A stretch of DNA of 27,858 nucleotides from NCBI GenBank assembly GCA_964552785.1, contig CAZKIC010000001.1, positions 1 to 27,858 on the forward strand, given 5' to 3'. Within the stretch, counting starts at the first letter, position 1, and each line of letters opens with the position of its first letter. Of the stretch, positions 1-24,600 are shown one piece after another. This DNA comes from an uncultured archaeon. GTDB taxonomy: Archaea; EX4484-52; CAZKIC01. A model generated the notes under the pieces. It was given only the letters and a program-made list of their open reading frames with translations, did no database searches and was not told the origin of the DNA. The position numbers were made by a program, and so were the translations under genes.

Positions 1-1728
1 TGTATAAAGCGAACTTAAAAATGATTCCCATCGACCGCCAAAACCTAATGGGATTAGGGAACTTATCTGCTTCTTTATTTCATCAAATCTGTTTCCTCCT
101 TCAATGTATTCTTTTATTTCTTCTATCGGATTTTCTGATAGTATTGTTGTATAAAATACATATCTTTCAAATCCATTTTTTTGTTTTTCAGTTAATGATT
201 CATAAAACTCATTTACTTCTTGTTCGCCAACCATAGCCAAAATATTATCTAATATCCTTTGTGAGTTGTCCAATAAATATTTGGTTGAGGCAGAAGATAG
301 TTTTCTCTTCATGTATTCTTCTTTCATAAAGGTGTACTTTGATTTCAAAGATGACACCACTACGTCTATGAAATATTGTCTGAGGCGCCACGAGTAATTC
401 CGTTCACGGCCTGACACTACATTCGAGATGCCTTTTAGATTCTCTTCATGCCCAAAGCCCTTATCTATCAGTTCCATATACTTTTCTAAAATACCAATTG
501 TTTTTGAAAGATTATCGTCATTTGCCCACATTGTGCTCTTGGCTATCGATTTTGAAACAACCTCTAAAGTTTCTGAGTTTATATATCCTTTATACCTGAG
601 TTGTTTCGATTTTTTTAATATATTGATTATTTCATCTGAAGACATACGATTAAGTAGTCTTGAGTAACAACAACTACAAAACCATCTAGTATTTAGCATA
701 ACTTCTGAAATAGGCTTTACACTAGAGCCATCAATATCACCACACTCTACTTGTTCTCCATAATCCTGTAAAAGAGAGATTGTTTCTGAGAAGTTCTCAT
801 CACTTCTATTTATTACACTCCATGCTATTACATCTGAAACAGATTTCAATGTTTCTTCATGCATCAATCCTTTATCCACTAGCTGTTTACATTGTTGGAA
901 CACAGATATTGTTTCCTCGGAGGATAAACGGTCAAGGAGTGTTAAATACTTATCATTCCTATCCTTTATTGCACTATTTGCTATTACTCTAGAAAACATT
1001 TCCAAATAATCCTGTGATCTAGAAAACAAAAAGTTCAACTTGTTCATTACTTTGTAGATTTTGTATATCTCATTGTTACGCCCAACAGAATCTATGTTCT
1101 CGTCTCTAAAGTCAAGACCTATCCATAATCTCTCAATAGACTCTCTGAGTTCTTCTTCATCTATTTTTCCGTTATATAATCCCAAAACTTCATTAATATG
1201 CCTTCTCAACACATACCTTTCAAATCCATCTCTGTCCATTACTGCTGTAAATCCTTCTTCCTTTTTGAATATCTGGGCTTTTATGTCAGAAAATAGCTCC
1301 TGTTGAGACAAAGTCAAAACAATGTCTGTATAAGGAGTTGTTTTTGCTTTGTCTAAAACCTCTTGGTATGTTCCTTTCAATACTCTATGTCTTGGCTTTA
1401 TACTTTCTGCCTGTCTGTTCAATATTTTCAAAGCATTAAACAGATCCTGCCTTGTTTTCACATTTGAAGGAATTTGAAATTCTTCCAACAAAGAATCAAC
1501 TGTTTCCAATATTTCTTTTTCATCTTTACTTGGAGTTCTAAAATCCAGTTCTATTGCATCTACATTTCCATCTATCTTTGTGTCTATATCCTTTATTTCT
1601 TTTAGAGCCTGTGCTATATGATCTATTCTTAATATGTATTCTTCTTCAGGAAGATTGTCATCTATGCTGTTTAATTTATCTTTTATTTCTTGTTCTATGT
1701 TTTCTTGAGTGTATGTTATTGTTAGCAT
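1..1728 (-). CDS. Large hypothetical alpha-helical repeat protein, >576 aa, 3' end beyond the window edge (absent from the ORF track)
   Basis: Manual translation: ATG at 1728, preceded by AAGGAG and 1 nt after the radical SAM stop, reads MLTITYTQENIEQEIKDKLN... with no stop for 576 codons to position 1. Internal ~45-aa repeats at about aa 237-440. Confidence 0.9.
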   Translation of the reverse strand, partial: MLTITYTQENIEQEIKDKLNSIDDNLPEEEYILRIDHIAQALKEIKDIDTKIDGNVDAIELDFRTPSKDEKEILETVDSLLEEFQIPSNVKTRQDLFNALKILNRQAESIKPRHRVLKGTYQEVLDKAKTTPYTDIVLTLSQQELFSDIKAQIFKKEEGFTAVMDRDGFERYVLRRHINEVLGLYNGKIDEEELRESIERLWIGLDFRDENIDSVGRNNEIYKIYKVMNKLNFLFSRSQDYLEMFSRVIANSAIKDRNDKYLTLLDRLSSEETISVFQQCKQLVDKGLMHEETLKSVSDVIAWSVINRSDENFSETISLLQDYGEQVECGDIDGSSVKPISEVMLNTRWFCSCCYSRLLNRMSSDEIINILKKSKQLRYKGYINSETLEVVSKSIAKSTMWANDDNLSKTIGILEKYMELIDKGFGHEENLKGISNVVSGRERNYSWRLRQYFIDVVVSSLKSKYTFMKEEYMKRKLSSASTKYLLDNSQRILDNILAMVGEQEVNEFYESLTEKQKNGFERYVFYTTILSENPIEEIKEYIEGGNRFDEIKKQISSLIPLGFGGRWESFLSSLYT

Positions 1729-1729
1729 T

Positions 1730-2395
1730 TTAAACTCCTTTTACCCTACATTCAACACTGTTCCCTTCCATATCTATCGTTTCAAGAGAGCATGAATCAC
1801 AATGATGTTCGCCGTCCACCACAACTAGCGGATTTATATTTATCTTGACGTGTTTGTATATTTCTTCAAGTTCACTCCTTGTTATCGTTTCAAATGAATT
1901 GTTTCTTTTTGTTCTAACCGCAGGGCTCAGCCTCAAACCAAAACCATTTTTATAAGCGTATTCAGCCACAGATCCTACTTCACTTAAGTTTCCCTTAAAA
2001 ACAACACAATTTAATGTTATTCTGTGTCCTCTCTCCTTGTATTTCTCTATGTTTTCAATAACTAAGTGCAAGTCCCTATTTGTGATATATCTATATGTTT
2101 TCTCATCCAGAGATGGCAGAGAGATTATTAAAGACGTCTCTTTAGGAAGTTCTTTATATATAGAGCCGTTTGTAGCCACAGCAATTTGTTTACCTTTAAT
2201 CAAACCATACACTATGACTTCTTCTATTGAAGGATAAAGCAAGGTTTCTCCTCCACTCAATCCTACAAACTCATCTTTTGTTGCTCCTATGAAATACTTT
2301 GCACTTTCTAAAGGCATAAATCCCTGCCTTTTTTCTCCGAGATAACAATAGACACAAGAGTGATTGCAAGATTCTGTCAACTCAATTATTCTCAC
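1730..2395 (-). CDS. Radical SAM protein (MoaA/PqqE/NirJ-like) with short C-terminal Cys cluster
   Basis: CxxxCxxC (CNHSCVYC), GGE (LSGGETLL), TNG (ATNGS), C-terminal HCDSC...C. GTG at 2395 preferred over 2404 because it lies 5 nt after GGTGA, the spacing seen for the upstream gene and adk. Confidence 0.88.
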   Translation of the reverse strand: MRIIELTESCNHSCVYCYLGEKRQGFMPLESAKYFIGATKDEFVGLSGGETLLYPSIEEVIVYGLIKGKQIAVATNGSIYKELPKETSLIISLPSLDEKTYRYITNRDLHLVIENIEKYKERGHRITLNCVVFKGNLSEVGSVAEYAYKNGFGLRLSPAVRTKRNNSFETITRSELEEIYKHVKININPLVVVDGEHHCDSCSLETIDMEGNSVECRVKGV

Positions 2396-3230
2396 ATTTT
2401 TCACCTTTACTCTCCGTTAATTCCGGAGGCAAAACAGGTATCTTTCCACCTTCGTTCATTAAGTTGATATACAAAGCAGTTATAGATTCCAGATGTTCCT
2501 CTATGAATGTTGCGCTTTCCTCATCAAAACCCGATAAATCTACGTAAGATCTTATCTCGCGTATTTGCTGATATACGTCTTCATAAGAATATTCTTTATT
2601 CAGGAAAGCAATGTTAGATCTTATCTGTTCTTTTTTTACCTCTATTATTACTTCATAATGACTTCCTCTCTCACACCGTCTTGTGGATACATTATAAACA
2701 GAATCTATATGCTCAATGTGTTTTGGTCTTACATTCTCAATAGGTTTTCTGTAAACTCTCATAGATATATCATCTAATATTCTCTTTATCTCTGCATTTG
2801 TTGTGAAACCCAATCTCTCTATTAATTCTTTGTTTATATCTCCTGCAGGTGTTAAAAGCAGTTGATTAAGTAACAAATCGTGATATGCTAAAGTCAGAGT
2901 TTCAAGAACTATGTGTTTATGCAGCCTTGGTTCCTCTGAACCTCCATTTTCCATTACTTCTTTATACAACACCACTTGCAAATCGCGTATCATGTTTTTT
3001 ATATATGTTGCGTACTCTAATCTCAATCCTTCTGATGTAGCGATAGCATTATACAAAGCTCCATCTAACACAAAATAACTTGTTTGTCTTGGAGTATTTA
3101 TCTCTATTACTTTTCCGCCTCTTTGTCTTAATTCGTATGCTTCTCTTTTGTCTTTTGTATGAACATATCCTCTGAACTCTTTTTCAATTTCTTCCTGATA
3201 AACTGTAGTTGGAACATAAATTCGCTCCAT
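2382..3230 (-). CDS. Hypothetical protein (~281 aa), no recognisable motif
   Basis: Long ORF; ATG at 3230 follows AAGGTGA by 5 nt; tightly coupled to both neighbours, overlapping the radical SAM start. Confidence 0.82.
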   Translation of the reverse strand: MERIYVPTTVYQEEIEKEFRGYVHTKDKREAYELRQRGGKVIEINTPRQTSYFVLDGALYNAIATSEGLRLEYATYIKNMIRDLQVVLYKEVMENGGSEEPRLHKHIVLETLTLAYHDLLLNQLLLTPAGDINKELIERLGFTTNAEIKRILDDISMRVYRKPIENVRPKHIEHIDSVYNVSTRRCERGSHYEVIIEVKKEQIRSNIAFLNKEYSYEDVYQQIREIRSYVDLSGFDEESATFIEEHLESITALYINLMNEGGKIPVLPPELTESKGEKCENN

Positions 3231-3240
3231 TATACTCACC

Positions 3241-4695
3241 TTACGCTATATCTGTGAATATATCTCCTATCTCTTCCCTTATTTCATCCCATGCTACTTG
3301 AGCATAATTATTTTCTGTTGATACCGACATATTAGCTTTTCTTCCAAGTTTTTTAGCAAGTTTCTGAAGTTCTGCAATTCTTTCAACATCTCTCACAGAC
3401 ATACCTTCAACATAGTCAATCTCTACTTCGTTTCTTCTTGCATATTCTTCTATGAATTCTCTTGAAGGTAAAGGCATGAATCCTTTATAAGGGAATCTCG
3501 TAAGTGTTCTGCTCATCAATCCGGGATTATTGGTTGTACCAACTATATAAACTCCTTCCTTTGGTTTGCTAAGATGACTCAAAAAGAAGTTTATTTGATC
3601 CATTTTGTAGTATCCGTAACTTCCCAAAAGCCCCTCTACTTCATCCAACACCACTATACATGGAGCGGATGCTTCAGCCATCTTCAACACTTTCTTTAAC
3701 CTGTTTACTGTTTCACCAACAAATTTGTTTTCTAATTCAGAGCCACTTATAAAAATGTAGTTGTAATTATTTTTCTTAGCGAAAGCTTCCACAAGTGTCG
3801 TTTTTCCTGTACCGTGCGGACCGTAGAGAAGTATGTTCGCGCCTTCCTCTAATGAAAACAACGCGTCCAAAATTGTTATATGTTTTTCATAAGTTACAGT
3901 TATCAAATCTTTGAAATCAACAGAAGGTTCTTTGAAGTAGGACACAGTCTTTTTTACAGTCGGCTTGAAAACCTTCAATGCACGATCCACACTTTCTTTC
4001 GATATTTTTCTATTATTTGTTCTTTCCAATTCAGCAGCATAAGCTCTGCCCAAAAAGTCAACCAGATCTGCTGGTGTGTATCCCGATGTTTTTGAAGCTA
4101 CATATTTTCTTAAATCATCGTTAATCTTAAATCCCACCGTATCGGAATCAATAAGAGTATTAATTATAGCTAATCTTTGGTCGTAATTAGGCATATTGAA
4201 CTCAATTTCAAAGGATAATCTTCCTCCCCTTTTTAATGCCGGTTCTATCTCGCTCAGATAATTGGTTGTTGCTAAAATGTATATGTCTTTATTGGAGCCA
4301 TTTCCATCCAGTTCCGTTTTTAAAGAAGAAATAATCCATCTGTTATTTTTATCTCGTTCTGCTATTGATTCAAATTCATCATAAAATATTATGACTTTCT
4401 TTCCTTTAGTAACTTCCTTTCTCGCGTAATTAAACATATCTTTTATTGCTTTTGGATTTATTTCCCCTTCTATGATCTCCAAATCTCATTTATCTATTTC
4501 ATCCCTAAAAGAATCGTAAATAATTTGCATTGCTGTCTTTGTTTTTCCTGTTCCGGGAAATCCATAGAAAATAGCACCTAAAGAACCCGTTTCTCCAAAT
4601 TGATGATCATCTCTCTCAAAGCACGCATATCTTAATTCTTCTAATTGCGTCTTGGTTTCTTCATCCAGTATTAGAGGATGTTTTGGTAATCTCAA
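3241..4695 (-). pseudogene. CDC48/VCP-like tandem AAA+ ATPase without N-domain, interrupted by one in-frame TGA (pseudogene, sequence error or recoded gene)
   Basis: ORFs 4486-4695 and 3241-4482 share a frame: ...GAT AAA TGA GAT TTG GAG. D1 Walker A GFPGTGKT lies before the stop; Walker B IIFYDEFE and SRH TTN..EPALKRGGRL lie after it. D2 has GPHGTGKT, pore loop KFVGE and VLDEVE. Confidence 0.8.
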
Positions 4696-4826
4696 ATTAA
4701 TACGTCTAGGTTCATATAACTCTGATGAAGGAACATAACCTCTTGAAGGTCTTTGATTGTGATCTCCACCCGAATGTGTTCTTCCGTCTCTTTTTTCCCA
4801 TCTCCAAAAATATTATATTTGCTCAT
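4692..4826 (-). CDS. 44-aa leader ORF (MSKYNIFGDGKKETEEHIRVEITIKDLQEVMFLHQSYMNLDVLI), or frameshifted true N-terminus of the AAA gene
   Basis: ATG 4826 preceded by GGTGA and a TATA box; its TGA overlaps the TTG of the AAA frame (TTGA). The AAA frame is open from about 4810 and is -1 relative to this ORF at GGG AAA AAA G. Confidence 0.45.
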   Translation of the reverse strand: MSKYNIFGDGKKETEEHIRVEITIKDLQEVMFLHQSYMNLDVLI

Positions 4827-4872
4827 TTGTTCACCATTGTTAATCTATTTTGTCATTATTTAGTGATTAACA

Positions 4873-4880
4873 TATTTAAA
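4873..4880 (-). promoter_or_regulatory. Putative TATA box of the AAA/radical SAM operon
   Basis: TTTAAATA preceded by purine-rich GGTAGAAATC, 47 nt upstream of ATG 4826. Confidence 0.55.
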
Positions 4881-5211
4881 GATTTCTACCTTCTTAGGAG
4901 TTGGCCCGTTTGAAGCTACGACAGACAACCAACTAAACCAATATCAATACACAAAACCATTCTTAACCCGGCCAGAATTCAAGTAACAAGTCAGAACTAG
5001 TTAACATTAAAGAAGCACAATGCAATATCAGACAAATTACCAAACACAAAAAAAGATTCGTGCTTCCACAAATAAATGAAGGTTTAATCTTTTAATATTT
5101 AAATTCAGCAAACCATACACAAATTCACAAAAGCAGTTTAGGTATGCATAAGAGAGATAGGAAGTCTAGGAAGATCCAAGTAAGGAGTTGTATTATACAT
5201 ATTCTATCTCA

Positions 5212-5547
5212 TTAATATCGTCCCTCTGCCGTAGCTTCCGAAAAAAAGGATTCTATAACTACCAGTTGTACCAGAAAAACAAATGTTATCGCATATATCA
5301 ATTTCAGAAAAGAATTGTTCAGAAAAAAAGAAGCCAACCCAAAAATAAAAGACAAAATACTTAAAAACAGACCGATCTCGTAAATAATATGCTGGTTATA
5401 CACAATTTCTACAGCACTGGAGTCATCCAGACGTATTGCATGAATAACAATCATGAATAAAGATATTATTATACTAACCAGATACATATCCTTCAATCTG
5501 GGCCGAGGCCCGTCAGGGGATGGCCTACTGTAAATTAACGTATCCAT
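5212..5547 (-). CDS. Small hypothetical membrane protein (~3 TM helices)
   Basis: Three hydrophobic segments (YLVSIIISLFMIVIHAI; IGLFLSILSFIFGLASFFL; LIYAITFVFLVQLVVI); starts 8 nt after the archease stop. Confidence 0.65.
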   Translation of the reverse strand: MDTLIYSRPSPDGPRPRLKDMYLVSIIISLFMIVIHAIRLDDSSAVEIVYNQHIIYEIGLFLSILSFIFGLASFFLNNSFLKLIYAITFVFLVQLVVIESFFSEATAEGRY

Positions 5548-6024: not shown

Positions 6025-6591
6025 TCAAATCAGTCTTTTTTCCAAACTTATAATATAGAACGCGCTAAGAAAACACAAAACAGACATTATGACGAAAAGA
6101 ACTTTAAATCCAAACACACTAGCTATCAGACCACCAATCGCAGATCCAATAGCGATTGAAAAATAATTCATTGATTCCCATGCGCCCCATTCTCTGCCGG
6201 CTTTTCTTTCAGTGACATGTTTAGAATAAAGAGCGTCAAAAGCAGGAGAATAGAATGCTTCTGCAAAACCAGTTAAAATCTGAACCATGAACAAAAACCA
6301 GATTGAGTTTACAAAAATATAAAGAAAGAATCCTATACCCATTACAAAATAACCAGAAGCAACAATCAAATCGTCTCTTTTGTTTTTATCTGCAAATTTT
6401 CCTGCAATCAATGTTGTTACTCCTGCCGCCAATGCAAATAAACCACTAGTGAACCCTGCATCTAATATATCCCCGCCAACTTCTTCAACAAACAGGGCAT
6501 AAATAGGACCAAGCATAGCGCCAGCAAACAATACCAACCCATTCGTGATCAACAACACTCGCAGCGCTTTATTGAATAAGAACCTTCTCAT
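6025..6591 (-). CDS. Half-size (6-TM) MFS-family transporter
   Basis: Six hydrophobic helices; MFS motif A-like GKFADKNKR after TM2; QILTGFAEAF..PA and GSAIGG motifs; only 188 aa with a clean start and stop. Confidence 0.82.
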   Translation of the reverse strand: MRRFLFNKALRVLLITNGLVLFAGAMLGPIYALFVEEVGGDILDAGFTSGLFALAAGVTTLIAGKFADKNKRDDLIVASGYFVMGIGFFLYIFVNSIWFLFMVQILTGFAEAFYSPAFDALYSKHVTERKAGREWGAWESMNYFSIAIGSAIGGLIASVFGFKVLFVIMSVLCFLSAFYIISLEKRLI

Positions 6592-6680: not shown

Positions 6681-7484
6681 ATGAAAACAAATTACGTAAT
6701 ATTTACAGATCTGGACGGCACACTGCTTGATCATGAGACTTATTCTTTTGAAGATGCATCAGAATCTTTAGAATTGATTAGAAAACACAACATACCATTG
6801 ATATTGTGTAGCAGCAAAACAAAAGAGGAAATCATATATCTGAGAAAAAAACTGAACCTCAAACACCCATTTATAGTTGAGAATGGTGGTGCCGTATACA
6901 TTCCAAAGAATTATTTTGACTTCAAATACCATTACGATAGAGAAGATCCTGATTACAACATAATAGAGTTCGGAACTTATATTGATGCCCTTGAAAAAAC
7001 TCTCAAGAGAATAAAAAACAGAGGTATAAAGATAATATCTTTTATTGATATGACTCCTGAAGAGATATCTAAAGACACCGGTCTTGGAATAGAAGAGTCT
7101 GTAAGAGCTGGAAAAAGAGAGTATGATATACCCTTTAAGATACTGGATAATGATAATGAAAAAACAATTAAAGAGATTATAAAGAAAGAAAAGCTGAATT
7201 ACACAAAAGGCGGAAGATACAGCCATATAATGGGAGATAACAACAAAGGAAAAGCCGTCAGAAAATTAATGGAGTTGTTCAGGAAGAAAAACAATAACAT
7301 AAAATCTATAGCTCTCGGAGATTCTCAAAACGATTTTCCTATGCTGGATGCTTCTGATGTAGGTATATTGGTAAAAAGACCTGATGGCTCTTACTCCTCT
7401 GACACATACAGAAAAGCGCAAGGGGTGGGCCCAACAGGATGGAACAAAGCAATTCTCGAACTTTTGGAGGGAAAATATGAATAA
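6681..7484 (+). CDS. mpgP: HAD-IIB phosphatase, mannosyl/glucosyl-3-phosphoglycerate phosphatase family (MpgP/YedP-like)
   Basis: FTDLDGTLLD, CSSKT, PFIVENGGAVYIP, REYDIPF, GGRYSH..NKGKAV, LGDSQNDFPML. Confidence 0.85.
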   Translation: MKTNYVIFTDLDGTLLDHETYSFEDASESLELIRKHNIPLILCSSKTKEEIIYLRKKLNLKHPFIVENGGAVYIPKNYFDFKYHYDREDPDYNIIEFGTYIDALEKTLKRIKNRGIKIISFIDMTPEEISKDTGLGIEESVRAGKREYDIPFKILDNDNEKTIKEIIKKEKLNYTKGGRYSHIMGDNNKGKAVRKLMELFRKKNNNIKSIALGDSQNDFPMLDASDVGILVKRPDGSYSSDTYRKAQGVGPTGWNKAILELLEGKYE

Positions 7485-8802: not shown

Positions 8803-9984
8803 ATGGTATTGTATTCTCATTCCAGAATAGGGACCTTTGAACAATGCAAGTTAAAATACAAGTACAAATACATAGACAAAATAGAACCGCCTTTAGGACA
8901 ATCAATAGAGGCTTTCATGGGAACATTAGTTCATGAAACTTTAGAGAAATTATTCAAAGATCTTAAATTCCAAAAACAAAATACTTTGGAAGAGTTACTG
9001 GATTTCTTCGAAAGATCATGGAAAGAAAATTGGAATGACTCAATATTCTTCGCAAGAGAAGAGTTCAAAGAAGAGAACTTCAAAGAAATGGGTAAAAAAT
9101 ACATCGCGGATTTCTTCAACAAACACCACCCATTCAACAAAGACAGAACTTTAGGATTGGAGATGGAAGTAAATCTGGATTTAAACGGGGATGGAAGATA
9201 CACGTTAGTGGGCTATATAGACAGGCTGTCAGAAAAAGATGGAGTAATAGAGATCCAGGATTATAAGACCTCGAACACATTGCCGACACAGGAAAATATA
9301 GATAAAGACAGGCAACTTGCTTTATATTCTATTGCTGTAAAGAACATGTATCCTTTCGCCAAGAAAATAAACTTGGTCTGGCATTATCTTGCATTTAACC
9401 AAACTCTGACAACAACAAAAACAGAAAAAGAACTTGAAGAAATAAAAAAAGAAATAATAAGCAAGATAGATCTCATTGAGAATGAAAAGAATTTCGAACC
9501 AAAAGAATCAACACTTTGCGACTGGTGTGAATTCCAGCCTATTTGTCCATTAAGAAAGCATCTTTTTAAGACAAAACACATGGAAATAAATGAATTTCTG
9601 GGGGAAGATGGTGTCAAACTGGTAAATGATTATGAAAAAACAAAAGAAGAGCTGGACAGAATAGAGGAAAAGCTGGAAAAGATAAAGGAAGCATTATTTT
9701 CTTATTCCGAGAAACATCATGTTGACAATATAGTTGGAAGTAATGCAATCGCACGCCTCAGAAAATACAAAAACATCAAATTCCCAAACAAAGGAGAATC
9801 AGGGAGAGATTCTGTAGAAAATATAATCAAAAAATCTGGACTGTGGGAAAGATTCTCAACTCTGGATACATTCTCACTATCAAGATCGATACAGGAAGGG
9901 CAAATACCTGAAGAAGTCATATTAAACCTGAAAGACTTTGTATCTGTATCAGAAACAAAAAGAATATACTTAAGTAAAAAATAA
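8803..9984 (+). CDS. PD-(D/E)XK nuclease, RecB/AddB/Cas4-like, with 4-Cys Fe-S staple and C-terminal extension
   Basis: YSHSRIGTFEQC, GTLVHETLE, GYIDRL, IQDYKTS, QLALY, CDWCEFQPICP. Confidence 0.88.
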   Translation: MVLYSHSRIGTFEQCKLKYKYKYIDKIEPPLGQSIEAFMGTLVHETLEKLFKDLKFQKQNTLEELLDFFERSWKENWNDSIFFAREEFKEENFKEMGKKYIADFFNKHHPFNKDRTLGLEMEVNLDLNGDGRYTLVGYIDRLSEKDGVIEIQDYKTSNTLPTQENIDKDRQLALYSIAVKNMYPFAKKINLVWHYLAFNQTLTTTKTEKELEEIKKEIISKIDLIENEKNFEPKESTLCDWCEFQPICPLRKHLFKTKHMEINEFLGEDGVKLVNDYEKTKEELDRIEEKLEKIKEALFSYSEKHHVDNIVGSNAIARLRKYKNIKFPNKGESGRDSVENIIKKSGLWERFSTLDTFSLSRSIQEGQIPEEVILNLKDFVSVSETKRIYLSKK

Positions 9985-12279: not shown

Positions 12280-14781
12280 CTATGCTCTTATAAACTCTCC
12301 GTCATCAGAAAGTTTTACTCCAAACACCTGAGAAACTCCTTTCTGCATCGTTACCCCGTATACTCTTTCCGCATGTTTTACTGTTGCATCATTATGGGAT
12401 ATGACAATAAACTGGCTTTTCTCAAGATTCTTCATTATCATCTCCCCGACTTTTTCAGAATTGGTCTTGTCCAGAGCAGCATCAACCTCATCTAATAAAT
12501 AAAATGGCGAAGGCCTGAAATGTTGTATGGCAAACAAAAAAGATAAAGCGGTAATGGCTTTCTCTCCGCCAGATAAAGAATCTATAGACAATAGCTTCTT
12601 GCCTTTTGGCTGTGCCCTAATAATTAAACCAGAATCAATATTGCCTTCCTCCTCTAATTCCAGTCTTGCCTCCCCATCGGCAACTTCTAGAAATATCTTT
12701 CCGAAATATTCATTTATTTTTTCAAAAGCGTGGTTGAACAGGAACTTCCTTTTCTCCTCTATCTGGTCTATCATATTCAGAATTGTCTTTCTTTCATCCT
12801 GCAACTTCTCTATTCTTTTTAAGAAATTATTATAATCTTCTTCATAATATTCATATTCCTCTATGGCTTTCATGTTAACTAAGCCCGCATTTCTCAAAAA
12901 CACTTCAATCCTTTTAAGTTCCTTCTCAATTTTCTCTACATCCCCTTTCTCTAGATCTTTATTGTCTTTGTATTTTTCAAAATCCTGAGAATATGTCTCA
13001 AACTCGGCTTCAAGACGCGCTTTTTTAATCTGTAAATTCCTGACTTCAACCTCTAAATTAATCATACTTTCATAAGCACTCTTTCTTTCAGTTCTGATTT
13101 TGTCTAGTTCCTCTTCAACAAGCTCTCTTTTCCTCTGTATATCCTTAACTTCATTGCTCTCGTTATCCTCTGCAGCCCTTTTAGACTCTAAAAGCTCGTT
13201 AAGATCCCCTATTTCATTTTTCAATTTATCAATCTCTTCCTGTAAAATTGATTTGCGCCTTTCATACTCTTTAATCTCTGATGTATTGACAGTTGCCAGA
13301 GAGCCTCTCTTTTTGTGAGATCCTCCAACAATAGCACCCGAAGCCTCGAAAAGCTCGCCGTCCAAAGTAACCACTTTTATCCCTTTAATCTTCTTAGCAG
13401 AGTCGACATCCTCTGCTATTAAAGTATCTCTAAATACGTATTCAATAGCGCTCTTATATTTAGGATTATATTGAACCAACTCAGAAGCAAAACCTATAAT
13501 TCCCGGCATTTTTGAAGCCAGTTCTGCCTTGCCGCTCCTTATATGCTTGCCAATCCTATCCAAAGGAATAAACCTCATTCTGCCTAATTTGTTCTCTTTC
13601 AGATATCTAATACCTTCTATAGCTCTTTTCTCGGAATCAACAACAACATCATTCAAATGATTCCCCGCAGCTATTTCTATGGCGGTCTGGAACTTTGAAT
13701 CAACAGTAATTAAATCAGAAATAGCACCGTCATAATCAATAACTCCGTCTAACCTACTCAAGCTTGTATTTGAAGACCCCTGACTCTGGCTTATTGATAA
13801 CAATTTTGAGATCATTTCTTCAATAGTTTCTATCTCCTTTCTATTAACATTAATCTTACTTTCCTTTTCCATTATTTTTTTAGTAATCTCCTCAATATCC
13901 TTCCTGAGATTCTTGTTTATACTTTTAGATATCATCTCGTCCTCTAATTTTTTAATCTCCTCCTCTTTCTTATCAAGAAGGTCATCAAATTTGTTGATAT
14001 TGGATTTCAAAGCATTATACTCATCTTCTTTAATTTTCAAATTCCTCTTGACATTCTCAAATTCTGTCTCTACAACTTTAAGTTTTGTATAAGCTAATTG
14101 TGCCCTAAGAACTGCCTGCCTATCTGTCAATTCCTTTACTTTCAATGCAGCATTTCTCTCCTTCCTTATTTTGTCCAAAAGCTCTTTTTTCTGTTCTAAT
14201 ATAATGTTTGCTTCAGAAATATTTTTTTCTGCACGTTCCAACTCCATCAGACTTTTTTCTTTCTTCTCATTATACTCCTTGACTCCTGCAGCATTATCTA
14301 TTATCGCCCTTCTTTCTTTATGCCGCATCTCTATGACTCTTGTGATGTCTCCTTGCTGAATAATAGACATGCCGTCTGTGTCAAGCCCGATCTTATCAAG
14401 AATCGCCTGAATATTTTCTCTTTTATCTGTTTTTCCGTTGATCTTATAGTAAGACACCCCTCTTCTGTTAACTTTTCTTGAAATAGTTATAACATCTTCA
14501 TCTATATCTATTGCCCTATCGCTATTATCTATTACAAGCTCCACTTCTGCAGTATCTGCCGGCCTCCTTCCGTGCCCTCCATTGTATATTATATGCTCCA
14601 TTCTTTGAGCTCTCATAGACCTTGAGCCTTTACCGAGAACAAAAACCAGTGCATCAACTATATTTGATTTCCCTGAACCGTTGGGGCCAATAACAGCATT
14701 AAATCCAGAATAGAAAGGTATCTCTGTTTTATTTGCGAATGATTTAAATCCTACTGCTGTTAGTTTTGCTATTCTCGCCAT
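12280..14781 (-). CDS. smc: SMC chromosome segregation ATPase with short arms (833 aa)
   Basis: Walker A GPNGSGKSN, Q-loop IQQG, hinge GRMRFIPL and GAIVGG, signature LSGGEK, Walker B LDEVDAALD, ISH. ATG 14781 follows GGGAG. Confidence 0.94.
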   Translation of the reverse strand: MARIAKLTAVGFKSFANKTEIPFYSGFNAVIGPNGSGKSNIVDALVFVLGKGSRSMRAQRMEHIIYNGGHGRRPADTAEVELVIDNSDRAIDIDEDVITISRKVNRRGVSYYKINGKTDKRENIQAILDKIGLDTDGMSIIQQGDITRVIEMRHKERRAIIDNAAGVKEYNEKKEKSLMELERAEKNISEANIILEQKKELLDKIRKERNAALKVKELTDRQAVLRAQLAYTKLKVVETEFENVKRNLKIKEDEYNALKSNINKFDDLLDKKEEEIKKLEDEMISKSINKNLRKDIEEITKKIMEKESKINVNRKEIETIEEMISKLLSISQSQGSSNTSLSRLDGVIDYDGAISDLITVDSKFQTAIEIAAGNHLNDVVVDSEKRAIEGIRYLKENKLGRMRFIPLDRIGKHIRSGKAELASKMPGIIGFASELVQYNPKYKSAIEYVFRDTLIAEDVDSAKKIKGIKVVTLDGELFEASGAIVGGSHKKRGSLATVNTSEIKEYERRKSILQEEIDKLKNEIGDLNELLESKRAAEDNESNEVKDIQRKRELVEEELDKIRTERKSAYESMINLEVEVRNLQIKKARLEAEFETYSQDFEKYKDNKDLEKGDVEKIEKELKRIEVFLRNAGLVNMKAIEEYEYYEEDYNNFLKRIEKLQDERKTILNMIDQIEEKRKFLFNHAFEKINEYFGKIFLEVADGEARLELEEEGNIDSGLIIRAQPKGKKLLSIDSLSGGEKAITALSFLFAIQHFRPSPFYLLDEVDAALDKTNSEKVGEMIMKNLEKSQFIVISHNDATVKHAERVYGVTMQKGVSQVFGVKLSDDGEFIRA

Positions 14782-14832
14782 CAAATCTCCCTAATCTCCC
14801 TATTTGCCTAATTATAATATGAACTTTGAGAG

Positions 14833-19702: not shown

Positions 19703-21601
19703 ATGACCAGAAAAACAAACAACATGAACGAATATTTTCCATATGATGAAATAAGAAAAGGCCAGGACTCATTCATAAAAATAGCAAAAGACATTATTGA
19801 GAATAAAAGGCATCTTCTTGTCCATGCGCCAACAGGCATAGGAAAAACCGTGGCTGCATTAGTGCCTGCACTACAATACTCTTTAAGAAACAAAAAAAGA
19901 ATTGTTTTCGTAACTCCAAGACACCAACAGCACAAAATAGTCATAGACACAATTAAAAGTATAAACAATAGATGGAACACAAGAATATCGATAACAGATT
20001 TCTTGGGCAGACAAAAGATGTGCAACATGGATGTATCTTTGTTGAGTTCAACAGATTTTAATGCGTTCTGCAAACATCATAGAGAAAACAAAACCTGTCC
20101 ATTCTACAATAAAACTTACAAGGATAAAAAAACAACTCCGGAAGCAGACATATTACTAAAAGAATTACACAATCAGGCTCTATATGGTGAAGATTTAAAA
20201 GAGAGGTCATATAAATTCTGTCCGTATGAGATAAACGTGGAATTAGGCAAGAAAACAGATGTGATAGTAGCGGATTATTATCATATATTCAGCCCGAGAA
20301 TAAGGGAGCACTTTCTTAAGAGACTAAACACAAAATTAGATGATATAATACTAATAGTTGATGAAGCCCACAATCTTCCATCAAGAGCAAGATCTCTATT
20401 CTCATCAAGAACATCATTCTATCAAATCAACCGCGTAAAAGAAGAATTAAAGGATTACAACAAAAATATCTCAAAACTGCTCGATTCAATAAACAAAGAT
20501 CTTATGAAAAAATTCAGAAATAAAAACAATATGAAGATCAATGGAGAATTCTTAGTTGAAAAAACAGACTTTACTGAAACAGTAAATAAATATATTCCAT
20601 ACAACGATTTGCTGGACGAACTATACTCCTACAGCGATATCATACATGAAAAAAAGGAGAGATCCTTTGTATCTGGGTTGACAACATTCCTTGAACTATG
20701 GTCTGAGGAAGATTCTTCTCTAGTAAGACTTGTAAATCTAGATGAAAAAGGTTTTAAATTGTCTTTAGAGTGTTTAGATCCATCTATTATAACAAAAGAT
20801 GTTTTTGAAGAAGTGCATTCTTCGGTATGTATGTCTGCAACATTATTGCCGTTGGAAATGTATTCCGACCTGTTGCAGATACCAAACCCGGCAAAGTTGC
20901 AATTAAAAAGCCCGTTTCCAAAAGAAAACAAAATATCAATAATATTGGATAATGTTACAACAAAATTCAGTATGAGAAACGAAGAAGAATATAAAAACAT
21001 TTCTGAAGAATTAATCAAACTATCTGAGATCATACCAGGAAATATAGGTGTATTCTTTCCTTCTTATTATATAAGAGATGAAATTTTGAGACTGATAAGA
21101 GAGAAAGTAAATAAACATCTATTCATTGAGATACAGGGTTCGACAACAGAGCAAAAGAACAAATTGATGGAAGATTTCAAGAAAGCCTCTGAAAACGGCG
21201 GAGGTATACTAATGGCTGTTGTTGGGGCTAATTTCTCGGAAGGTGTTGACTTTAAAGGAGAATGGATGAATGGAGTAATATTGGTAGGTCTGCCTTTAGA
21301 CCGTCCGGATCTGTTGACAAAATCCTTGATAGATTACTATCAAAACAAATTTAAGAAAGGTTGGGAATATGGATACACATACCCTGCAATGAACAAAGCA
21401 ATACAAGCAATGGGTAGGTGTATAAGGTCAGAAAAAGATAAAGGGGTTATAGTTCTAATGGACGCCAGATACAAAGAAAGACGTTACAGAAATTTATTGC
21501 CTTCAGATTATGAATTCATAGAAAAATCAGATGAAAAAATAAAAGAACTTTTCAAAGAATATATCAAACCAAAAACCACAAGTCTAAAAGGATTCATCTA
21601 G
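19703..21601 (+). CDS. xpd: XPD/Rad3-family Fe-S DNA helicase
   Basis: APTGIGKT; four Fe-S cysteines (GRQKMC, FCK, TCPFY, FCPYE); DEAHNL; SATL; FSEGVDF; QAMGRCIRS. Confidence 0.93.
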   Translation: MTRKTNNMNEYFPYDEIRKGQDSFIKIAKDIIENKRHLLVHAPTGIGKTVAALVPALQYSLRNKKRIVFVTPRHQQHKIVIDTIKSINNRWNTRISITDFLGRQKMCNMDVSLLSSTDFNAFCKHHRENKTCPFYNKTYKDKKTTPEADILLKELHNQALYGEDLKERSYKFCPYEINVELGKKTDVIVADYYHIFSPRIREHFLKRLNTKLDDIILIVDEAHNLPSRARSLFSSRTSFYQINRVKEELKDYNKNISKLLDSINKDLMKKFRNKNNMKINGEFLVEKTDFTETVNKYIPYNDLLDELYSYSDIIHEKKERSFVSGLTTFLELWSEEDSSLVRLVNLDEKGFKLSLECLDPSIITKDVFEEVHSSVCMSATLLPLEMYSDLLQIPNPAKLQLKSPFPKENKISIILDNVTTKFSMRNEEEYKNISEELIKLSEIIPGNIGVFFPSYYIRDEILRLIREKVNKHLFIEIQGSTTEQKNKLMEDFKKASENGGGILMAVVGANFSEGVDFKGEWMNGVILVGLPLDRPDLLTKSLIDYYQNKFKKGWEYGYTYPAMNKAIQAMGRCIRSEKDKGVIVLMDARYKERRYRNLLPSDYEFIEKSDEKIKELFKEYIKPKTTSLKGFI

Positions 21602-24600
21602 AAATTCGCTCCGCAACCACTACATGTACCTTCCAAAATCCTGGATCCGCATTTCGTACATCTTAAAGGAACTCCTTCTATAACCTTTACAATATCAGAA
21701 ACATAGCTATCATCACTGACTTTGTTTGCGAAGTATGCATAATCCTTCTCAACTTTTTCCTCGAGAGCCTCTACAGTCTGGCTCAATCTGCTCTTAATAC
21801 TGTCTAAAGGACCTTGTTTCTGCATCTTAGGTAATTCCTGACGCGCTCCAACAAAAGCTGGAGACGCGCCAGAAACGGTTGGCTTTATCGGATAACCATT
21901 AGATGAAATCTTGCTTCTGTACATAAAGAAAGACGCAACAACTACAGCCAACAACACAATAAACAATAAATACCAATACCACGCTAAACCTTGTTGAATC
22001 TCTTCTTCCTGAATCTTGGCGATAAGTGCATTTGCATCATTCAGTTTCTGTCTTGAAAGCTCATAATTTCCATTCTCAATGGCGTTGTAAGCCTCACCCA
22101 AAACTCTCTTAGCATCATCATAAAATAATCTTTTATAATCAGGCAGGGCTTCATAATCCATCGAAGTTAATATACTGTTCAAAGAGGTATACCTTGACAT
22201 TAAAGAGTCATATTCAGAATTGTCAAGTTCAAAAACAAACAACTCTGTGAATGTTTTTTCGTCTGACTGTATCCTTACTCCAACATCATAAACTGTTTCT
22301 ATGAACAATTCTTTCGGACAGACATTCATTCTCAGAGTTCCTGTTTCTCCCGGAGATAAAGAATCAATACTGTCTAAACCACGTATATTAAACTCAGGAA
22401 ATTGCGAATCCATAATCTTTAGATTGTTAAGTGTTTCTGTTCCATCATTTTCAACACTCACATAATAATCAGAACAAGCTCCTTTTGACAAATAAACTGT
22501 GTTGTCTAAAATACGCAATGAACTATATGTTAAAAGAGGCGCTGTCACTATTCCGGAGGTGGATGATGACATGCCTCCTGTACTTCCTCCGGTACTCCGG
22601 CTAGAACTGGAACCTCCTCCGCAATTAGAACAACCACTAGATGTTCCGGCAGGCCAATCAACCTCTATATATTCAACTTCCTTGCTTGACAAAGCATACA
22701 TCCCCGTAATAAAAGAATTCTGTCCGCTCTTGTCAACCTTTATTGAAACATTGTTCGGATATACGGATATATTATAAACAAGATATATATTGTTGGAAGA
22801 GTAATCATAATAAGATGATGAGTTTATAGTGTGATTTGTTTCATTTCTTAATATAGCTGTTGCCCCAGAGATTCCATTAGAAATATGTATCTCAAAAATA
22901 CCCAGACCTTCGCTTGAATTAACAACAAAAGTCTTATTATTTCCATTTGTTTGGTCACGACCTCTCACAACAGTAATATTTAATTCTGTTGTATTAACTA
23001 TCGGCAGGTATCCCTGTCTTGTTATATTTGAATTATTGATCCATAATATATAATTTCCAGGAATTACATGAGTAAACAAAACACCAGGATCGGTTACATT
23101 GTAAACATTATTAAGGGATACATTAACACCCTCTATATCATTTCCTGTTGCATTTGTTATATTAACTAAGTATTTGGTGTCATTAACATATATTGTCTTT
23201 AATGTAATCTCTCCAGCATTGATAATTGAGACATTGCTTGATGAAGCCCCAAGATATTCTGGAAGATTATTGAATGTTATGTTGTAATCTCCTAAAGGAA
23301 GAATAGAGAACAAAACAGAACCGTTTTGTGTGGTATTTGTTCTTGAAACCGGTCCATTTATGCTTAAAGAGATGCCGTCAACATATTGGTTTAACTGATC
23401 TATGAGTGTTATGTTTAATCTTGTTGTGTTTATAATTATATTTTCTGTTGTGTTCTCACCAGGACTTATTGTATAAGTTGTTGTAAAGTTGTCATAACCC
23501 TTGTTTCCTCCTATGACTGTGACATCATAGGTAAGATCCCTGAAGAACTCTGAAACAACAGACGGACTGCTCAATGTAAGATTTACATCATAATCAACGC
23601 CGTTGTCTATCAAAACATTAACTCCTTCGACATAATTCCCATTTTCGTCAACAAACCTTATTGTCTTGTATCCCCACCCTTTTGGATATAAATAGTAATC
23701 CTTTGAAGTGGTTCCGCTGAATGAAGAATTATCTGACATCTCCTCAAAGTTAACAACAGCAATTGAAACATTATAAGGCTGATAATACGGATTAATAATA
23801 ATATTGAATTGGCCGTTGTTGTGAGATCCTTTATACATTGTGTTGAGATTATCATCAACAGTGCTTACAGTTCCTGGATACAATGAAGAATCTAACAATT
23901 GGTTTGTCATTATATTATAAAGATTTCCTGAAAATGTTCCGCTTCCAGTCATAGGAACTTCTCCGCCTCTAACTTTATGGATTTCTCCCTCCGACAATGT
24001 AGTTGTCTCTACAGTATCTAAATACCCTTGTTTTGACACCTCTATATTATACGTGATAGTTGTCGGACTTCCAACAACAGAATCTTGCGAATAAGGACTC
24101 ACATTGAAATAGAAAGTTCCATTTGCATCTGTTGTTACAGAATACCTTGTGTCTCCATTATGCTTTAATTTTATTGTTGCATACGAAACATTATATCTTG
24201 GATCTCCTGTTGTTACGAAATATTTGTCATAAACATGTCCTGAAACAACAGCAGTTCCTGTCAATGAAACCTTGAAACTTCCATAAACCCCTCTTGTGTT
24301 CTGATTGTAATTGTCATAATGCGTTCCATTAAAATATAGAGAATCGTCATAAGAATCGTAACTGCTGTATCCTTCCGCAAAAATAGAAACATAATAATTT
24401 GAAAGACCATTGACTCTTATGAAAGCATCTCCGTTGCTGTCAGTATAATCCTCTCCTACAATAATATATCCTATAGCTCGTCCATCCAGATAATTGGCAT
24501 AACCCATCTCCCCTCCTTTTACAGAAAAATGATAGAATGCAGAAGGAAGATTCTCAAAAACAACCCACCCTGTTGAATTCGTCAGATTTGTATATGAAGA

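What the first reader, a model, noticed from the sequence alone, without database searches (positions are those of the whole stretch)
1..4826. Uncharacterised coupled operon: CDC48-like double AAA ATPase + unknown protein + radical SAM + large helical-repeat protein
Seen: four or five same-strand ORFs behind one TATA box, with gaps of 10 nt, -14 nt and 1 nt, and an RBS (GGTGA or AAGGAG) at each junction. Established: tandem type II AAA+ ATPases remodel or unfold proteins, and radical SAM enzymes with an extra C-terminal Cys cluster often modify peptides or proteins. Inference: a protein-modification/remodelling module, or an accessory defence or host-interaction system, in which the solenoid is scaffold or substrate. 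I do not recognise this combination as a named system, and the operon continues beyond the window.
Basis: partly seen in the sequence, partly recalled or inferred. Interest (0 to 1): 0.7.

Follow-up and report, generated by a model that had tools for sequence, protein, structure and literature searches.

The report
Orphan archaeal AAA–radical-SAM operon, ATPase broken
This is a real, tightly coupled four-gene operon of an uncultured archaeon (a Cdc48-type double ATPase, an orphan protein, a miniature MoaA/viperin-like radical SAM enzyme and a large helical protein). It is seen in only two or three related lineages, matches no named system, and in this genome its ATPase gene is knocked out by a frameshift and a premature stop.

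Summary
The ORF layout is real. Four minus-strand genes (4826→1) follow a TATA-like box, with junctions of 10 nt, −14 nt and 1 nt, each preceded by GGTGA or AAGGAG. Domain calls hold:
- a type-II classical AAA+ ATPase, closest to Afg2/p97/VAT, with no N-domain;
- a 282-aa protein with no family;
- a 221-aa radical SAM enzyme (CX3CX2C, GGE, and a conserved C-terminal CX2CX13C, the MoaA auxiliary-cluster spacing);
- a protein of more than 576 aa, mostly helical, with two 94-aa tandem repeats.

There is a −1 frame change near an A6 run (4791-4796) and an in-frame TGA (4486-4488) between Walker A and Walker B of D1. Both lesions recur in independent assemblies, and TGA is an ordinary stop in this genome. 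A relative (L004/L005, 52-66% aa identity) keeps the same gene order with an intact 524-aa ATPase. dN/dS is 0.12-0.16.

The 282-aa protein has no other relative among 1.84 billion representatives, and nothing matches PADLOC, PHROGs, plasmids, phages or GTDB genomes. Both AlphaFold models failed (pLDDT 45-47). Function is unresolved. I favour a dispensable, lineage-specific accessory (conflict-type) module over a protein-maturation pathway. Interest is moderate.

The parts
4873..4880 (-). TATA-box-like TTTAAATA, 47-54 nt upstream of the ATG
   Evidence: The position fits an archaeal promoter. The pattern itself is only mildly enriched in the window (17 matches against 9.6 expected).
4831..4835 (-). 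GGTGA ribosome-binding site before ATG 4826
3241..4826 (-). Disrupted gene for an N-domain-less type-II (D1+D2) classical AAA+ ATPase. Read through, it gives about 528 aa, 66% identical to the intact 524-aa L004 protein.
   Evidence: PF00004 matches twice (E 6e-45). The closest solved structures are Afg2/Drg1, p97/Cdc48 and VAT (E about 1e-47). Motif positions: D1 Walker A 4540-4563, D1 Walker B 4369-4392, D2 Walker A 3799-3822, D2 pore loop NKFVGE 3712-3729, D2 Walker B 3634-3657.
4692..4826 (-). Frame-A fragment (44 codons, MSKYNIFGDGKK...), which holds the true start codon. Its stop TGA 4692-4694 overlaps TTG 4693-4695.
   Evidence: The N-terminus resembles L004's MTKKSIFENYRE.
4791..4796 (-). 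A6 run, the most likely site of the 1-nt loss that throws the gene into the -1 frame
   Evidence: Homology to L004 continues in the -1 frame upstream of any start codon in that frame. The exact site between 4796 and about 4770 is inferred.
4486..4488 (-). In-frame TGA between Walker A and Walker B of D1. It aligns with Glu in the L004 protein.
   Evidence: It is present in L001-L003 and in contigs of runs X2 and X3. TGA ends 6 of the 21 ORFs examined in the window (one being the 69-aa fragment closed by this same TGA), so it is an ordinary stop here.
3241..4482 (-). Remaining 413-aa ORF: the rest of D1 without its P-loop, plus the complete D2
2382..3230 (-). Gene 2: a 282-aa orphan alpha/beta protein with many invariant His and one invariant Cys. 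No family is known.
   Evidence: The only relatives are P0002 and P0004 (64% identity) in L004 and L005.
1730..2395 (-). Gene 3: a 221-aa radical SAM enzyme. CNHSCVYC lies at 2345-2368, the GGE motif at 2240-2257, and the C-terminal CX2CX13C at 1748-1801.
   Evidence: The MoaA motif spacing is taken from PMC5352715.
1..1728 (-). Gene 4: a protein of more than 576 aa that runs off the contig. It has a conserved N-terminal region of about 260 aa, then tandem 94-aa helical repeats (aa 264-347 = 688-939; aa 358-438 = 415-657).
   Evidence: The only relative is P0003 (48% identity). In L004 the gene starts MLKLTYSED, 4 nt after the radical SAM stop.

Best explanation
What it is (shown). This is a lineage-restricted, translationally coupled four-gene operon on an archaeal chromosome. 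The genes are:
(1) a Cdc48/Afg2-type double-ring AAA+ ATPase without an N-domain; D2 carries a canonical substrate-threading pore loop (KFVG), and D1 has Walker A and B but no aromatic pore loop;
(2) an orphan 282-aa protein;
(3) a very small radical SAM enzyme of the MoaA/viperin/twitch neighbourhood, with a second three-Cys site (CX2CX13C) that would hold a [4Fe-4S] cluster with one open iron;
(4) a large, mainly helical protein with tandem 94-aa repeats.

State in this genome (shown, with interpretation). The ATPase gene carries a 1-nt frame change and a premature TGA. It is most likely a recent pseudogene, so the module is dispensable and probably inactive here. The sister lineage keeps it intact.

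How it most likely works (inferred, low confidence). It is an accessory conflict-type module, for defence or symbiont-host interaction.
- The repeat protein is the sensor or scaffold.
- The radical SAM enzyme is the effector. It binds a nucleotide-like or other small or peptide ligand at the open iron of its auxiliary cluster and transforms it by 5'-deoxyadenosyl radical chemistry.
- The AAA+ hexamer uses the co-translated gene-2 protein as a stand-in for the missing N-domain adaptor. It remodels or unfolds a partner to switch the system on or to recycle it.
For: Anatomy and coupling.

Domains:
- AAA.
- Radical SAM. The best profile hits are MoaA (2e-17), pVip (4e-15), viperin-like structures 9dfu and 7n7h, and MoaA 1tv7.
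- CX2CX13C is conserved in both lineages and has the spacing of MoaA's substrate-binding auxiliary cluster.

Real genes under purifying selection: dN/dS 0.12-0.16.

Synteny and coupling are conserved in L004 and L005, which have an intact 524-aa ATPase.

The lesions are real:
- Three further assemblies are identical or nearly so.
- Contigs from two other runs and studies agree.
- TGA is used as a normal stop.

Accessory character:
- Gene 2 has no relative among 1.84e9 representatives.
- Genes 3 and 4 have one relative each outside this organism.
- There are no hits in GTDB genomes, JGI contigs or IMG/VR.
- The neighbouring genes differ between the window and L004.
- The ATPase is inactivated in one lineage.
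- Repeat content in gene 4 varies between lineages.
Against: - No component matches a defence family at a meaningful level. The PADLOC hits are generic AAA and radical SAM cores.
- No defence genes are seen nearby. The surroundings are housekeeping genes.
- The G+C of the operon equals that of the rest of the contig, so nothing points to recent transfer.
- The CX2CX13C match to MoaA is a spacing match only. The HMM alignment to MoaA stops before it.
- The adaptor and sensor roles for genes 2 and 4 are pure inference. Both AlphaFold models were unusable (pLDDT 45 and 47) and the fold searches were meaningless.
- With only 2-3 lineages sampled, 'patchy distribution' may simply reflect a poorly sampled clade. 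Its housekeeping proteins are also singletons in 90% clusters.
Confidence: 0.35

Rival explanations
1. Protein-maturation module. The AAA+ unfoldase, with the gene-2 protein as adaptor, holds or unfolds a specific protein, most simply the gene-4 repeat protein or gene 2 itself. The twitch-type radical SAM enzyme then installs a post-translational modification such as a crosslink, methylation or epimerisation. This is essentially the first reader's primary reading.
For: - The SPASM/twitch neighbourhood includes many peptide and protein modifiers. SkfB, AlbA, PapB, HxsC, mycofactocin and anSME-type models all hit weakly.
- The D2 pore loop KFVG indicates polypeptide threading.
- The 1-nt junction between the radical SAM gene and gene 4, and the 14-nt overlap between gene 2 and the radical SAM gene, suggest stoichiometric complexes.
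- There is a precedent for a radical SAM enzyme maturing a repeat-bearing effector, the HXS system (PMC13128918, seen).
Against: - The best radical SAM hits are NTP-acting enzymes (MoaA, viperin), not peptide maturases.
- No RRE/PqqD-like domain was detected.
- No Cdc48-type unfoldase is known to me as a partner of a radical SAM maturase. This rests on my own knowledge; the literature searches found none.
- Loss of the ATPase in this lineage while the other genes stay intact argues against an obligatory step.
Confidence: 0.25
2. The ATPase is not dead. It is made as a naturally split protein, or rescued by recoding. Possible routes are termination-reinitiation at the two stop/start junctions (TGA 4692-4694 overlapping TTG 4693-4695; TGA 4486-4488 followed 3 nt later by TTG 4480-4482), -1 slippage on G-AAA-AAA, or TGA read-through.
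For: - Both breaks are followed at once by a possible TTG start.
- All catalytic motifs are still intact, and the AAA gene has the lowest dN/dS of the three (0.12).
- The same lesions are fixed in samples from two different studies.
- The A6 run sits at the frame change.
Against: - Neither TTG has an RBS.
- The split would separate the P-loop from the rest of the D1 Rossmann fold.
- Two independent rescue events would be needed in one gene.
- The sister lineage encodes one uninterrupted 524-aa protein.
- No RNA data exist.
- Intact motifs are equally expected for a recent pseudogene.
Confidence: 0.12
3. The radical SAM enzyme is a divergent MoaA or cofactor maturase, and the operon serves molybdenum or tungsten cofactor or another metallocofactor assembly, with the AAA+ acting as an insertion chaperone.
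For: - The top NCBIfam hits are MoaA models and the tungsten-cofactor oxidoreductase maturase.
- The CNxxCxYC and CX2CX13C motifs resemble those of MoaA.
Against: - Scores are far below the cut-offs: 63 against 284 bits for MoaA, and 36 against 380 for the W-maturase.
- The protein is about 110 aa shorter than MoaA and lacks a conserved C-terminal Gly-Gly tail (the need for that tail is from my own knowledge of MoaA).
- No MoaC, MoaB, MoaE or oxidoreductase gene is nearby.
- The partner proteins are orphans and the ATPase is dispensable.
Confidence: 0.05
4. It is a remnant cargo of an integrated virus, plasmid or other mobile element, and is now decaying.
For: - The distribution is narrow.
- The flanking genes differ in the two lineages.
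- One gene is pseudogenised.
- A 385-nt AT-rich upstream spacer is present.
Against: - There are no hits in IMG/VR, phage or plasmid collections, and none in PHROGs for genes 2 and 4.
- No integrase, tRNA or terminal repeats were found.
- The G+C is identical to that of the host contig.
Confidence: 0.1

Closest known systems
Cdc48/p97/VAT and Afg2/Drg1 type-II classical AAA+ unfoldases
   Same: Two tandem PF00004 domains are present. Walker A and B are present in both, D1 has an RxxR Arg-finger region, and D2 has the pore loop K-F-V-G. The best PDB matches have E about 1e-47.
   Different: - There is no N-terminal double-psi-barrel domain, only a tail of about 55 aa.
- The total length is about 524 aa, against more than 720.
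- TIGR01243 scores 130 bits against a cut-off of 803.
- The C-terminus (…FTDIA / …FTDIM) has no HbYX proteasome-docking motif.
- In this genome the gene is interrupted twice.
MoaA (GTP 3',8-cyclase)
   Same: It gives the best NCBIfam hit. The proteins share the N-terminal CNxxCxYC motif and a second three-Cys motif with the same CX2CX13C spacing as the MoaA auxiliary cluster that binds GTP.
   Different: - The protein is 221 aa, against about 300-340 aa for MoaA.
- Scores are 59-63 bits against cut-offs of 231-325.
- The HMM alignment ends before the C-terminal Cys motif.
- There is no conserved Gly-Gly tail.
- There is no MoaC partner.
Prokaryotic viperins (pVip) and viperin-like enzymes
   Same: pVip is the only PADLOC family the radical SAM protein matches (E 4e-15), and viperin-like enzymes give the best solved-structure profile hits (9dfu, 7n7h, 6b4c). 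Viperins are single-effector radical SAM antiviral enzymes acting on NTPs.
   Different: - Only the radical SAM core (aa 8-142) aligns.
- The NCBIfam viperin model scores 38 bits against a cut-off of 180.
- Viperins have no auxiliary cluster, and they have a C-terminal NTP-binding extension that is absent here.
Twitch/SPASM radical SAM maturases (SkfB, BtrN, HxsC and others) and the HXS defence system
   Same: A compact C-terminal Cys motif follows the partial TIM barrel. The operon also encodes a repeat-bearing protein next to the radical SAM gene.
   Different: - All hits are far below the cut-offs.
- No RRE or leader-peptide logic is apparent.
- The repeats here are 94-aa helical units, not short HxS-type repeats.
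- The partner ATPase is unrelated.
IetA/IteA anti-phage AAA ATPase (IetAS)
   Same: It gives the best PADLOC hit for the ATPase (E 5e-26).
   Different: IteA has a single AAA domain and is paired with a protease. The NCBIfam IteA model scores 81 bits against a cut-off of 510. There is no IetS-like protease here.

Membership tests
CDC48 family AAA ATPase (TIGR01243) | Whole-protein score above the curated cut-off (802 bits) | tested here: not met
   129.8 bits.
CDC48 family AAA ATPase (TIGR01243) | N-terminal substrate/adaptor-binding domain preceding D1 | tested here: not met
   No Pfam N-domain was found. Only about 55 residues precede D1 in the intact L004 protein.
CDC48 family AAA ATPase (TIGR01243) | Two tandem classical AAA domains with Walker A and B | tested here: met
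   PF00004 matches twice, and the motifs were located.
Proteasome-activating AAA (PAN / Cdc48-20S) | C-terminal HbYX motif | tested here: not met
   The C-termini are ...TDIA and ...TDIM. PAN models score about 116 bits against a cut-off of 500.
MoaA (TIGR02666 / TIGR02668) | Score above the curated cut-off | tested here: not met
   62.9 against 284 bits, and 59.3 against 325 bits.
MoaA (TIGR02666 / TIGR02668) | CX3CX2C plus a C-terminal CX2CX13C auxiliary-cluster motif | tested here: met
   C10/C14/C17 and C199/C202/C216 are conserved in both lineages. The motif definition is from PMC5352715. Cluster binding itself was not tested.
MoaA (TIGR02666 / TIGR02668) | GTP 3',8-cyclase activity and a MoaC partner | not testable with these tools
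   No MoaC-like gene is in the window. Activity needs biochemistry.
Prokaryotic viperin (NF038283 / PADLOC pVip) | Score above the curated cut-off, with the C-terminal NTP-binding extension aligned | tested here: not met
   38.2 against 180 bits. Only profile positions 8-169 of 281 align. PADLOC aligns 5-152 of 257.
IetAS / IteA anti-phage system | IteA equivalog score and an adjacent IetS protease | tested here: not met
   81 against 510 bits. There is no protease in the operon.
Radical SAM superfamily (PF04055) | CX3CX2C, the GGE SAM-binding motif, and a Pfam score above gathering | tested here: met
   59.7 against 29.5 bits. CNHSCVYC and SGGETL are present.
Any PADLOC / PHROGs / Pfam / NCBIfam family for genes 2 and 4 | Any significant profile match | tested here: not met
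   There are no matches in any of the four libraries, none among PDB sequences, and none for gene 2 among 1.84e9 representatives.

The most novel reading that the evidence does not exclude
In its intact form (as in L004), the operon is a previously undescribed archaeal system. In it, a Cdc48-type unfoldase is functionally coupled to one of the smallest radical SAM enzymes with a MoaA-like open-iron auxiliary cluster. Two proteins of new folds serve as adaptor and as repeat-based sensor or substrate. This would be either a new kind of antiviral or symbiosis module that makes a radical-derived nucleotide product, or the first unfoldase-assisted radical SAM protein modification.
Probability: 0.25. 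Interest if true: 0.65.

Novelty: new variant of a known kind. Interest (0 to 1): 0.4.

Why it matters
- If the intact version works as a unit, it would link two very large enzyme superfamilies, classical AAA+ unfoldases and radical SAM enzymes. I found no described operonic partnership between them.
- It would also offer a minimal (221-aa) two-cluster radical SAM scaffold for enzymology.
- It adds two protein families with no detectable relatives.
- The practical value is limited. The hosts are uncultured vent and mat archaea, only two or three lineages carry the operon, the 3' end is unknown, and the copy in this window has a disabled ATPase.
- For annotation, the useful result is that the AAA gene here should be flagged as a pseudogene or split gene rather than as three small ORFs.

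Tried and rejected
- Exact-protein look-ups with the ORF listing start codons failed. The corrected gene-2 start (ATG 3230) worked.
- Extending the contig leftwards was not possible. The window is the whole contig. L001-L003 are shorter copies of the same sequence. L004 and L005 both end about 30 nt into gene 4. The contig carrying P0003 is not on record.
- The neighbourhood search for recurrence found nothing. This covered GTDB genomes twice, JGI metagenome contigs twice and IMG/VR twice.
- Phage and plasmid tblastn searches for gene 4 gave no match.
- AlphaFold2 gave pLDDT 45 for gene 2 and 47 for gene 4. The Foldseek hits had TM ≤ 0.24 and were generic designed helical repeats or LAGLIDADG enzymes at probability 0.06, so I discarded them.
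- I rejected genetic-code reassignment or selenocysteine as an explanation for the TGA. TGA ends 6 of the 21 ORFs examined, the position aligns with a non-conserved Glu, and there is no Rfam hit.
- I rejected sequencing error as an explanation for the lesions.
- No RNA runs were found to test expression.
- I considered repeat-induced assembly breaks in gene 4, but no DNA-level repeats are present in 1-5300. Low coverage (2-4×) explains the breaks.
- The upstream regions of the window and L004 show no conserved promoter block.
- Literature searches for an AAA + radical SAM system found only unrelated systems, Ophion and HXS.

Full report
**1. What is in the sequence**

All genes of the finding lie on the minus strand.
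- A TATA-like TTTAAATA sits at 4873-4880, a GGTGA at 4831-4835 and an ATG at 4826.
- The AAA reading frame ends at TAA 3241-3243.
- Ten nucleotites later, after a GGTGA, ATG 3230 opens gene 2 (282 aa), which stops at TGA 2382-2384.
- The radical SAM gene starts at GTG 2395, preceded by GGTGA and overlapping gene 2 by 14 nt. It ends at TAA 1730-1732.
- One nucleotide later, after AAGGAG, ATG 1728 opens gene 4, which is still open at base 1 (576 codons).

The TATA match is well placed, but this pattern is common in a 34% G+C window (17 found against 9.6 expected).

The window is an entire 27,858-nt contig, so the operon cannot be extended from it.

**2.

- ATG 4826 opens a frame that reads MSKYNIFGDGKKETEEH… and stops after 44 codons at TGA 4692-4694.
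- The sequence homologous to the intact relative continues in the -1 frame (…HSGGDHNQRPSRGYVPSSELYEPRRINLRLPKHPLILDEETK…). It does so upstream of any start codon in that frame.
- One nucleotide has therefore been lost, most simply from the A run at 4791-4796.
- That frame is then interrupted by TGA 4486-4488, between the D1 Walker A (GFPGTGKT, 4540-4563) and Walker B (IIFYDEFE, 4369-4392). The position aligns with a Glu in the relative.

The lesions are not assembly errors.
- Three independent assemblies from other samples are 99.9-100% identical and carry the same ORF pieces.
- Contigs of two further runs, from a hydrothermal-vent study and a microbial-mat study, cover 4445-4950 and 4215-4631/4750-4950. 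All match the window exactly except the 4215-4631 contig, which has a single differing letter at an unlocated position.

TGA closes 6 of the 21 ORFs I examined in the window. One of these is the 69-aa fragment closed by this same in-frame TGA. The code is therefore standard.

No other gene in the window is obviously interrupted. An MFS gene is only half length.

Read through, the protein is 66% identical over its full length to the intact 524-aa orthologue, and every catalytic motif is preserved. The inactivation is therefore recent relative to the split of the two lineages.

A split-gene or recoding rescue cannot be excluded. Each break is followed at once by a TTG. However, neither TTG has an RBS, two separate rescues would be needed, and the sister lineage has a single ORF.

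**3. The proteins**

*ATPase.*
- PF00004 matches twice (E 6e-45).
- The closest curated model is CDC48, but far below its cut-off (130 against 803 bits).
- The closest solved structures are Afg2/Drg1, p97/Cdc48, VAT, NSF and Rix7.
- It has no N-domain and no C-terminal HbYX motif.
- D2 has the threading pore loop KFVG. D1 has none.
- In short, it is a Cdc48-like type-II unfoldase core that would need a separate adaptor.

*Gene 2.*
- There are no hits in Pfam, NCBIfam, PADLOC, PHROGs or PDB sequences.
- The word-indexed search of 5.8e9 proteins found one relative (P0002, 64% identity).
- The exhaustive profile search of 1.84e9 representatives found only its own cluster.
- It is a true orphan, with many invariant His and one invariant Cys.

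*Radical SAM enzyme.*
- It matches PF04055 (59.7 bits) and carries CNHSCVYC and SGGETL.
- It is only 221 aa long.
- Its best matches are MoaA (2e-17), archaeal MoaA, viperin and pVip (4e-15). In PDB they are viperin-like enzymes and MoaA. All are far below the family cut-offs.
- Its C-terminus carries C199-x2-C202-x13-C216, invariant in both lineages.
- That is the spacing of the MoaA auxiliary [4Fe-4S] cluster, whose open iron binds GTP (PMC5352715).
- This is a motif-level resemblance, not an alignment. The enzyme fails every MoaA and viperin membership score.

*Gene 4.*
- It matches no family and has one relative, P0003 (48% identity).
- The first 260 or so residues are well conserved.
- Two 94-aa tandem repeats follow (score 141 against 34±5 for shuffles). 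Each is built from helix pairs of the type LSxEExxxVFxxxxxLVxxGxxxEExLKSVSxxI.
- Repeat content differs between lineages.

*Structure models.* AlphaFold models of genes 2 and 4 reached only pLDDT 45 and 47. The fold searches gave nothing usable.

**4. Recurrence**

- L004 (an ENA metagenome scaffold) and L005 (an independent Logan assembly of another run) carry AAA (intact, 524 aa), gene 2, the radical SAM gene and the start of gene 4 (MLKLTYSED). The order and the tight junctions are the same.
- Pairwise dN/dS is 0.12 (AAA), 0.16 (gene 2) and 0.16 (radical SAM), with dS saturated. All three are real genes kept by selection.
- The genes upstream differ. The window has archease, a half-size MFS, an MPGP-like HAD phosphatase and a GH15 glycosidase. 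L004 has Pelota, a 253-aa protein and a secreted 674-aa protein. None of the L004 neighbours has a counterpart in the window.
- G+C is the same inside and outside the operon.
- No further copies were found in GTDB species representatives, JGI contigs, IMG/VR, phages or plasmids.
- The host lineage itself is poorly sampled. Its CysRS, XPD and GAN proteins are singletons or pairs at 90% clustering. This weakens any argument from rarity.

**5. Explanation**

Three things are shown: the operon, its coupling, its domain content and motifs; its conservation in a sister lineage; and the inactivating lesions here.

The mechanism is inferred. Four observations point to an accessory module rather than housekeeping:
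- the components have orphan status;
- the ATPase has been lost in one lineage while the rest stays intact;
- gene 4 has a variable repeat protein;
- the genomic context differs between lineages.

The nearest relatives of the radical SAM enzyme act on nucleoside triphosphates, and one of them (viperin) is an antiviral effector. I therefore rank a conflict-type module first (0.35). In that reading the repeat protein senses or scaffolds, the radical SAM enzyme is the effector, and the AAA+ with gene 2 is the remodeller.

An unfoldase-assisted protein-modification pathway comes next (0.25). Lower down are a functional split ATPase (0.12, compatible with either function), a mobile-element remnant (0.10) and a divergent Moco or tungsten-cofactor role (0.05).

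None of these can be decided with the present data. The deciding experiments are listed under next steps.

**6. Comparison with the known, and novelty**

- The two enzymes are new, small subfamilies of very well known superfamilies.
- Genes 2 and 4 are new families.
- The combination matches no PADLOC system and none I could find in the literature. The radical-SAM defence systems I did find, pVip, HXS and Ophion, have different partners.
- I rate it a new variant of known kinds of machinery rather than categorically new. No function is demonstrated, and the evidence for a system rests on two to three closely related lineages.

**7. Verdict**

It needs one important correction: the ATPase gene is disrupted.
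- Interest is 0.4.

Noticed in passing
window 6025-6591 (-): The MFS transporter gene is only 188 aa and matches positions 1-167 of the 347-position MFS_1 profile. It is either a half-size transporter or a truncated gene. There is no room for a second half before the archease gene.
   Followed up: partly
window 21598-27834 (-): A 2078-aa ORF with repeated CarboxypepD_reg / prealbumin-like beta-sandwich domains fills the right end of the contig. It is probably a giant surface or S-layer-type protein.
   Followed up: partly
window 12280-14784 (-): The SMC protein is unusually short (834 aa), though both head halves and the hinge are detected. This fits a reduced-genome archaeon.
   Followed up: no
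window 8803-9984 (+): A stand-alone PD-(D/E)XK / Cas4-like nuclease (393 aa) is present, with no CRISPR array or cas genes in the window.
   Followed up: no
window 4692-4695 and 4480-4488 (-): Both breaks in the AAA gene are followed at once by a TTG (TTGA stop/start overlap; TGA-GAT-TTG). This could be coincidence or could allow termination-reinitiation.
   Followed up: partly
window 4912-4925 and 5225-5238: A 14-nt inverted repeat (93% complementary) brackets most of the 385-nt intergenic region upstream of the operon. It may well be chance in AT-rich DNA.
   Followed up: no
L004 1-4272: In the sister lineage the operon sits next to Pelota, a 253-aa unknown protein and a 674-aa protein with a signal-peptide-like N-terminus. 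None of these has a counterpart in the window, so local synteny around the operon is not conserved.
   Followed up: yes
whole window: The housekeeping proteins of the contig (CysRS, XPD, GAN/RecJ-like) are singletons or pairs in 90%-identity clusters of a collection of about 15 billion proteins. The organism belongs to a very sparsely sampled vent and mat archaeal lineage. I could not determine its taxonomy with the tools left.
   Followed up: partly
window 7384-7484 (+): The 100-nt apparent overlap between the HAD phosphatase and the GH15 ORF comes from using the first ATG. A start at 7477 or 7492 removes it.
   Followed up: partly
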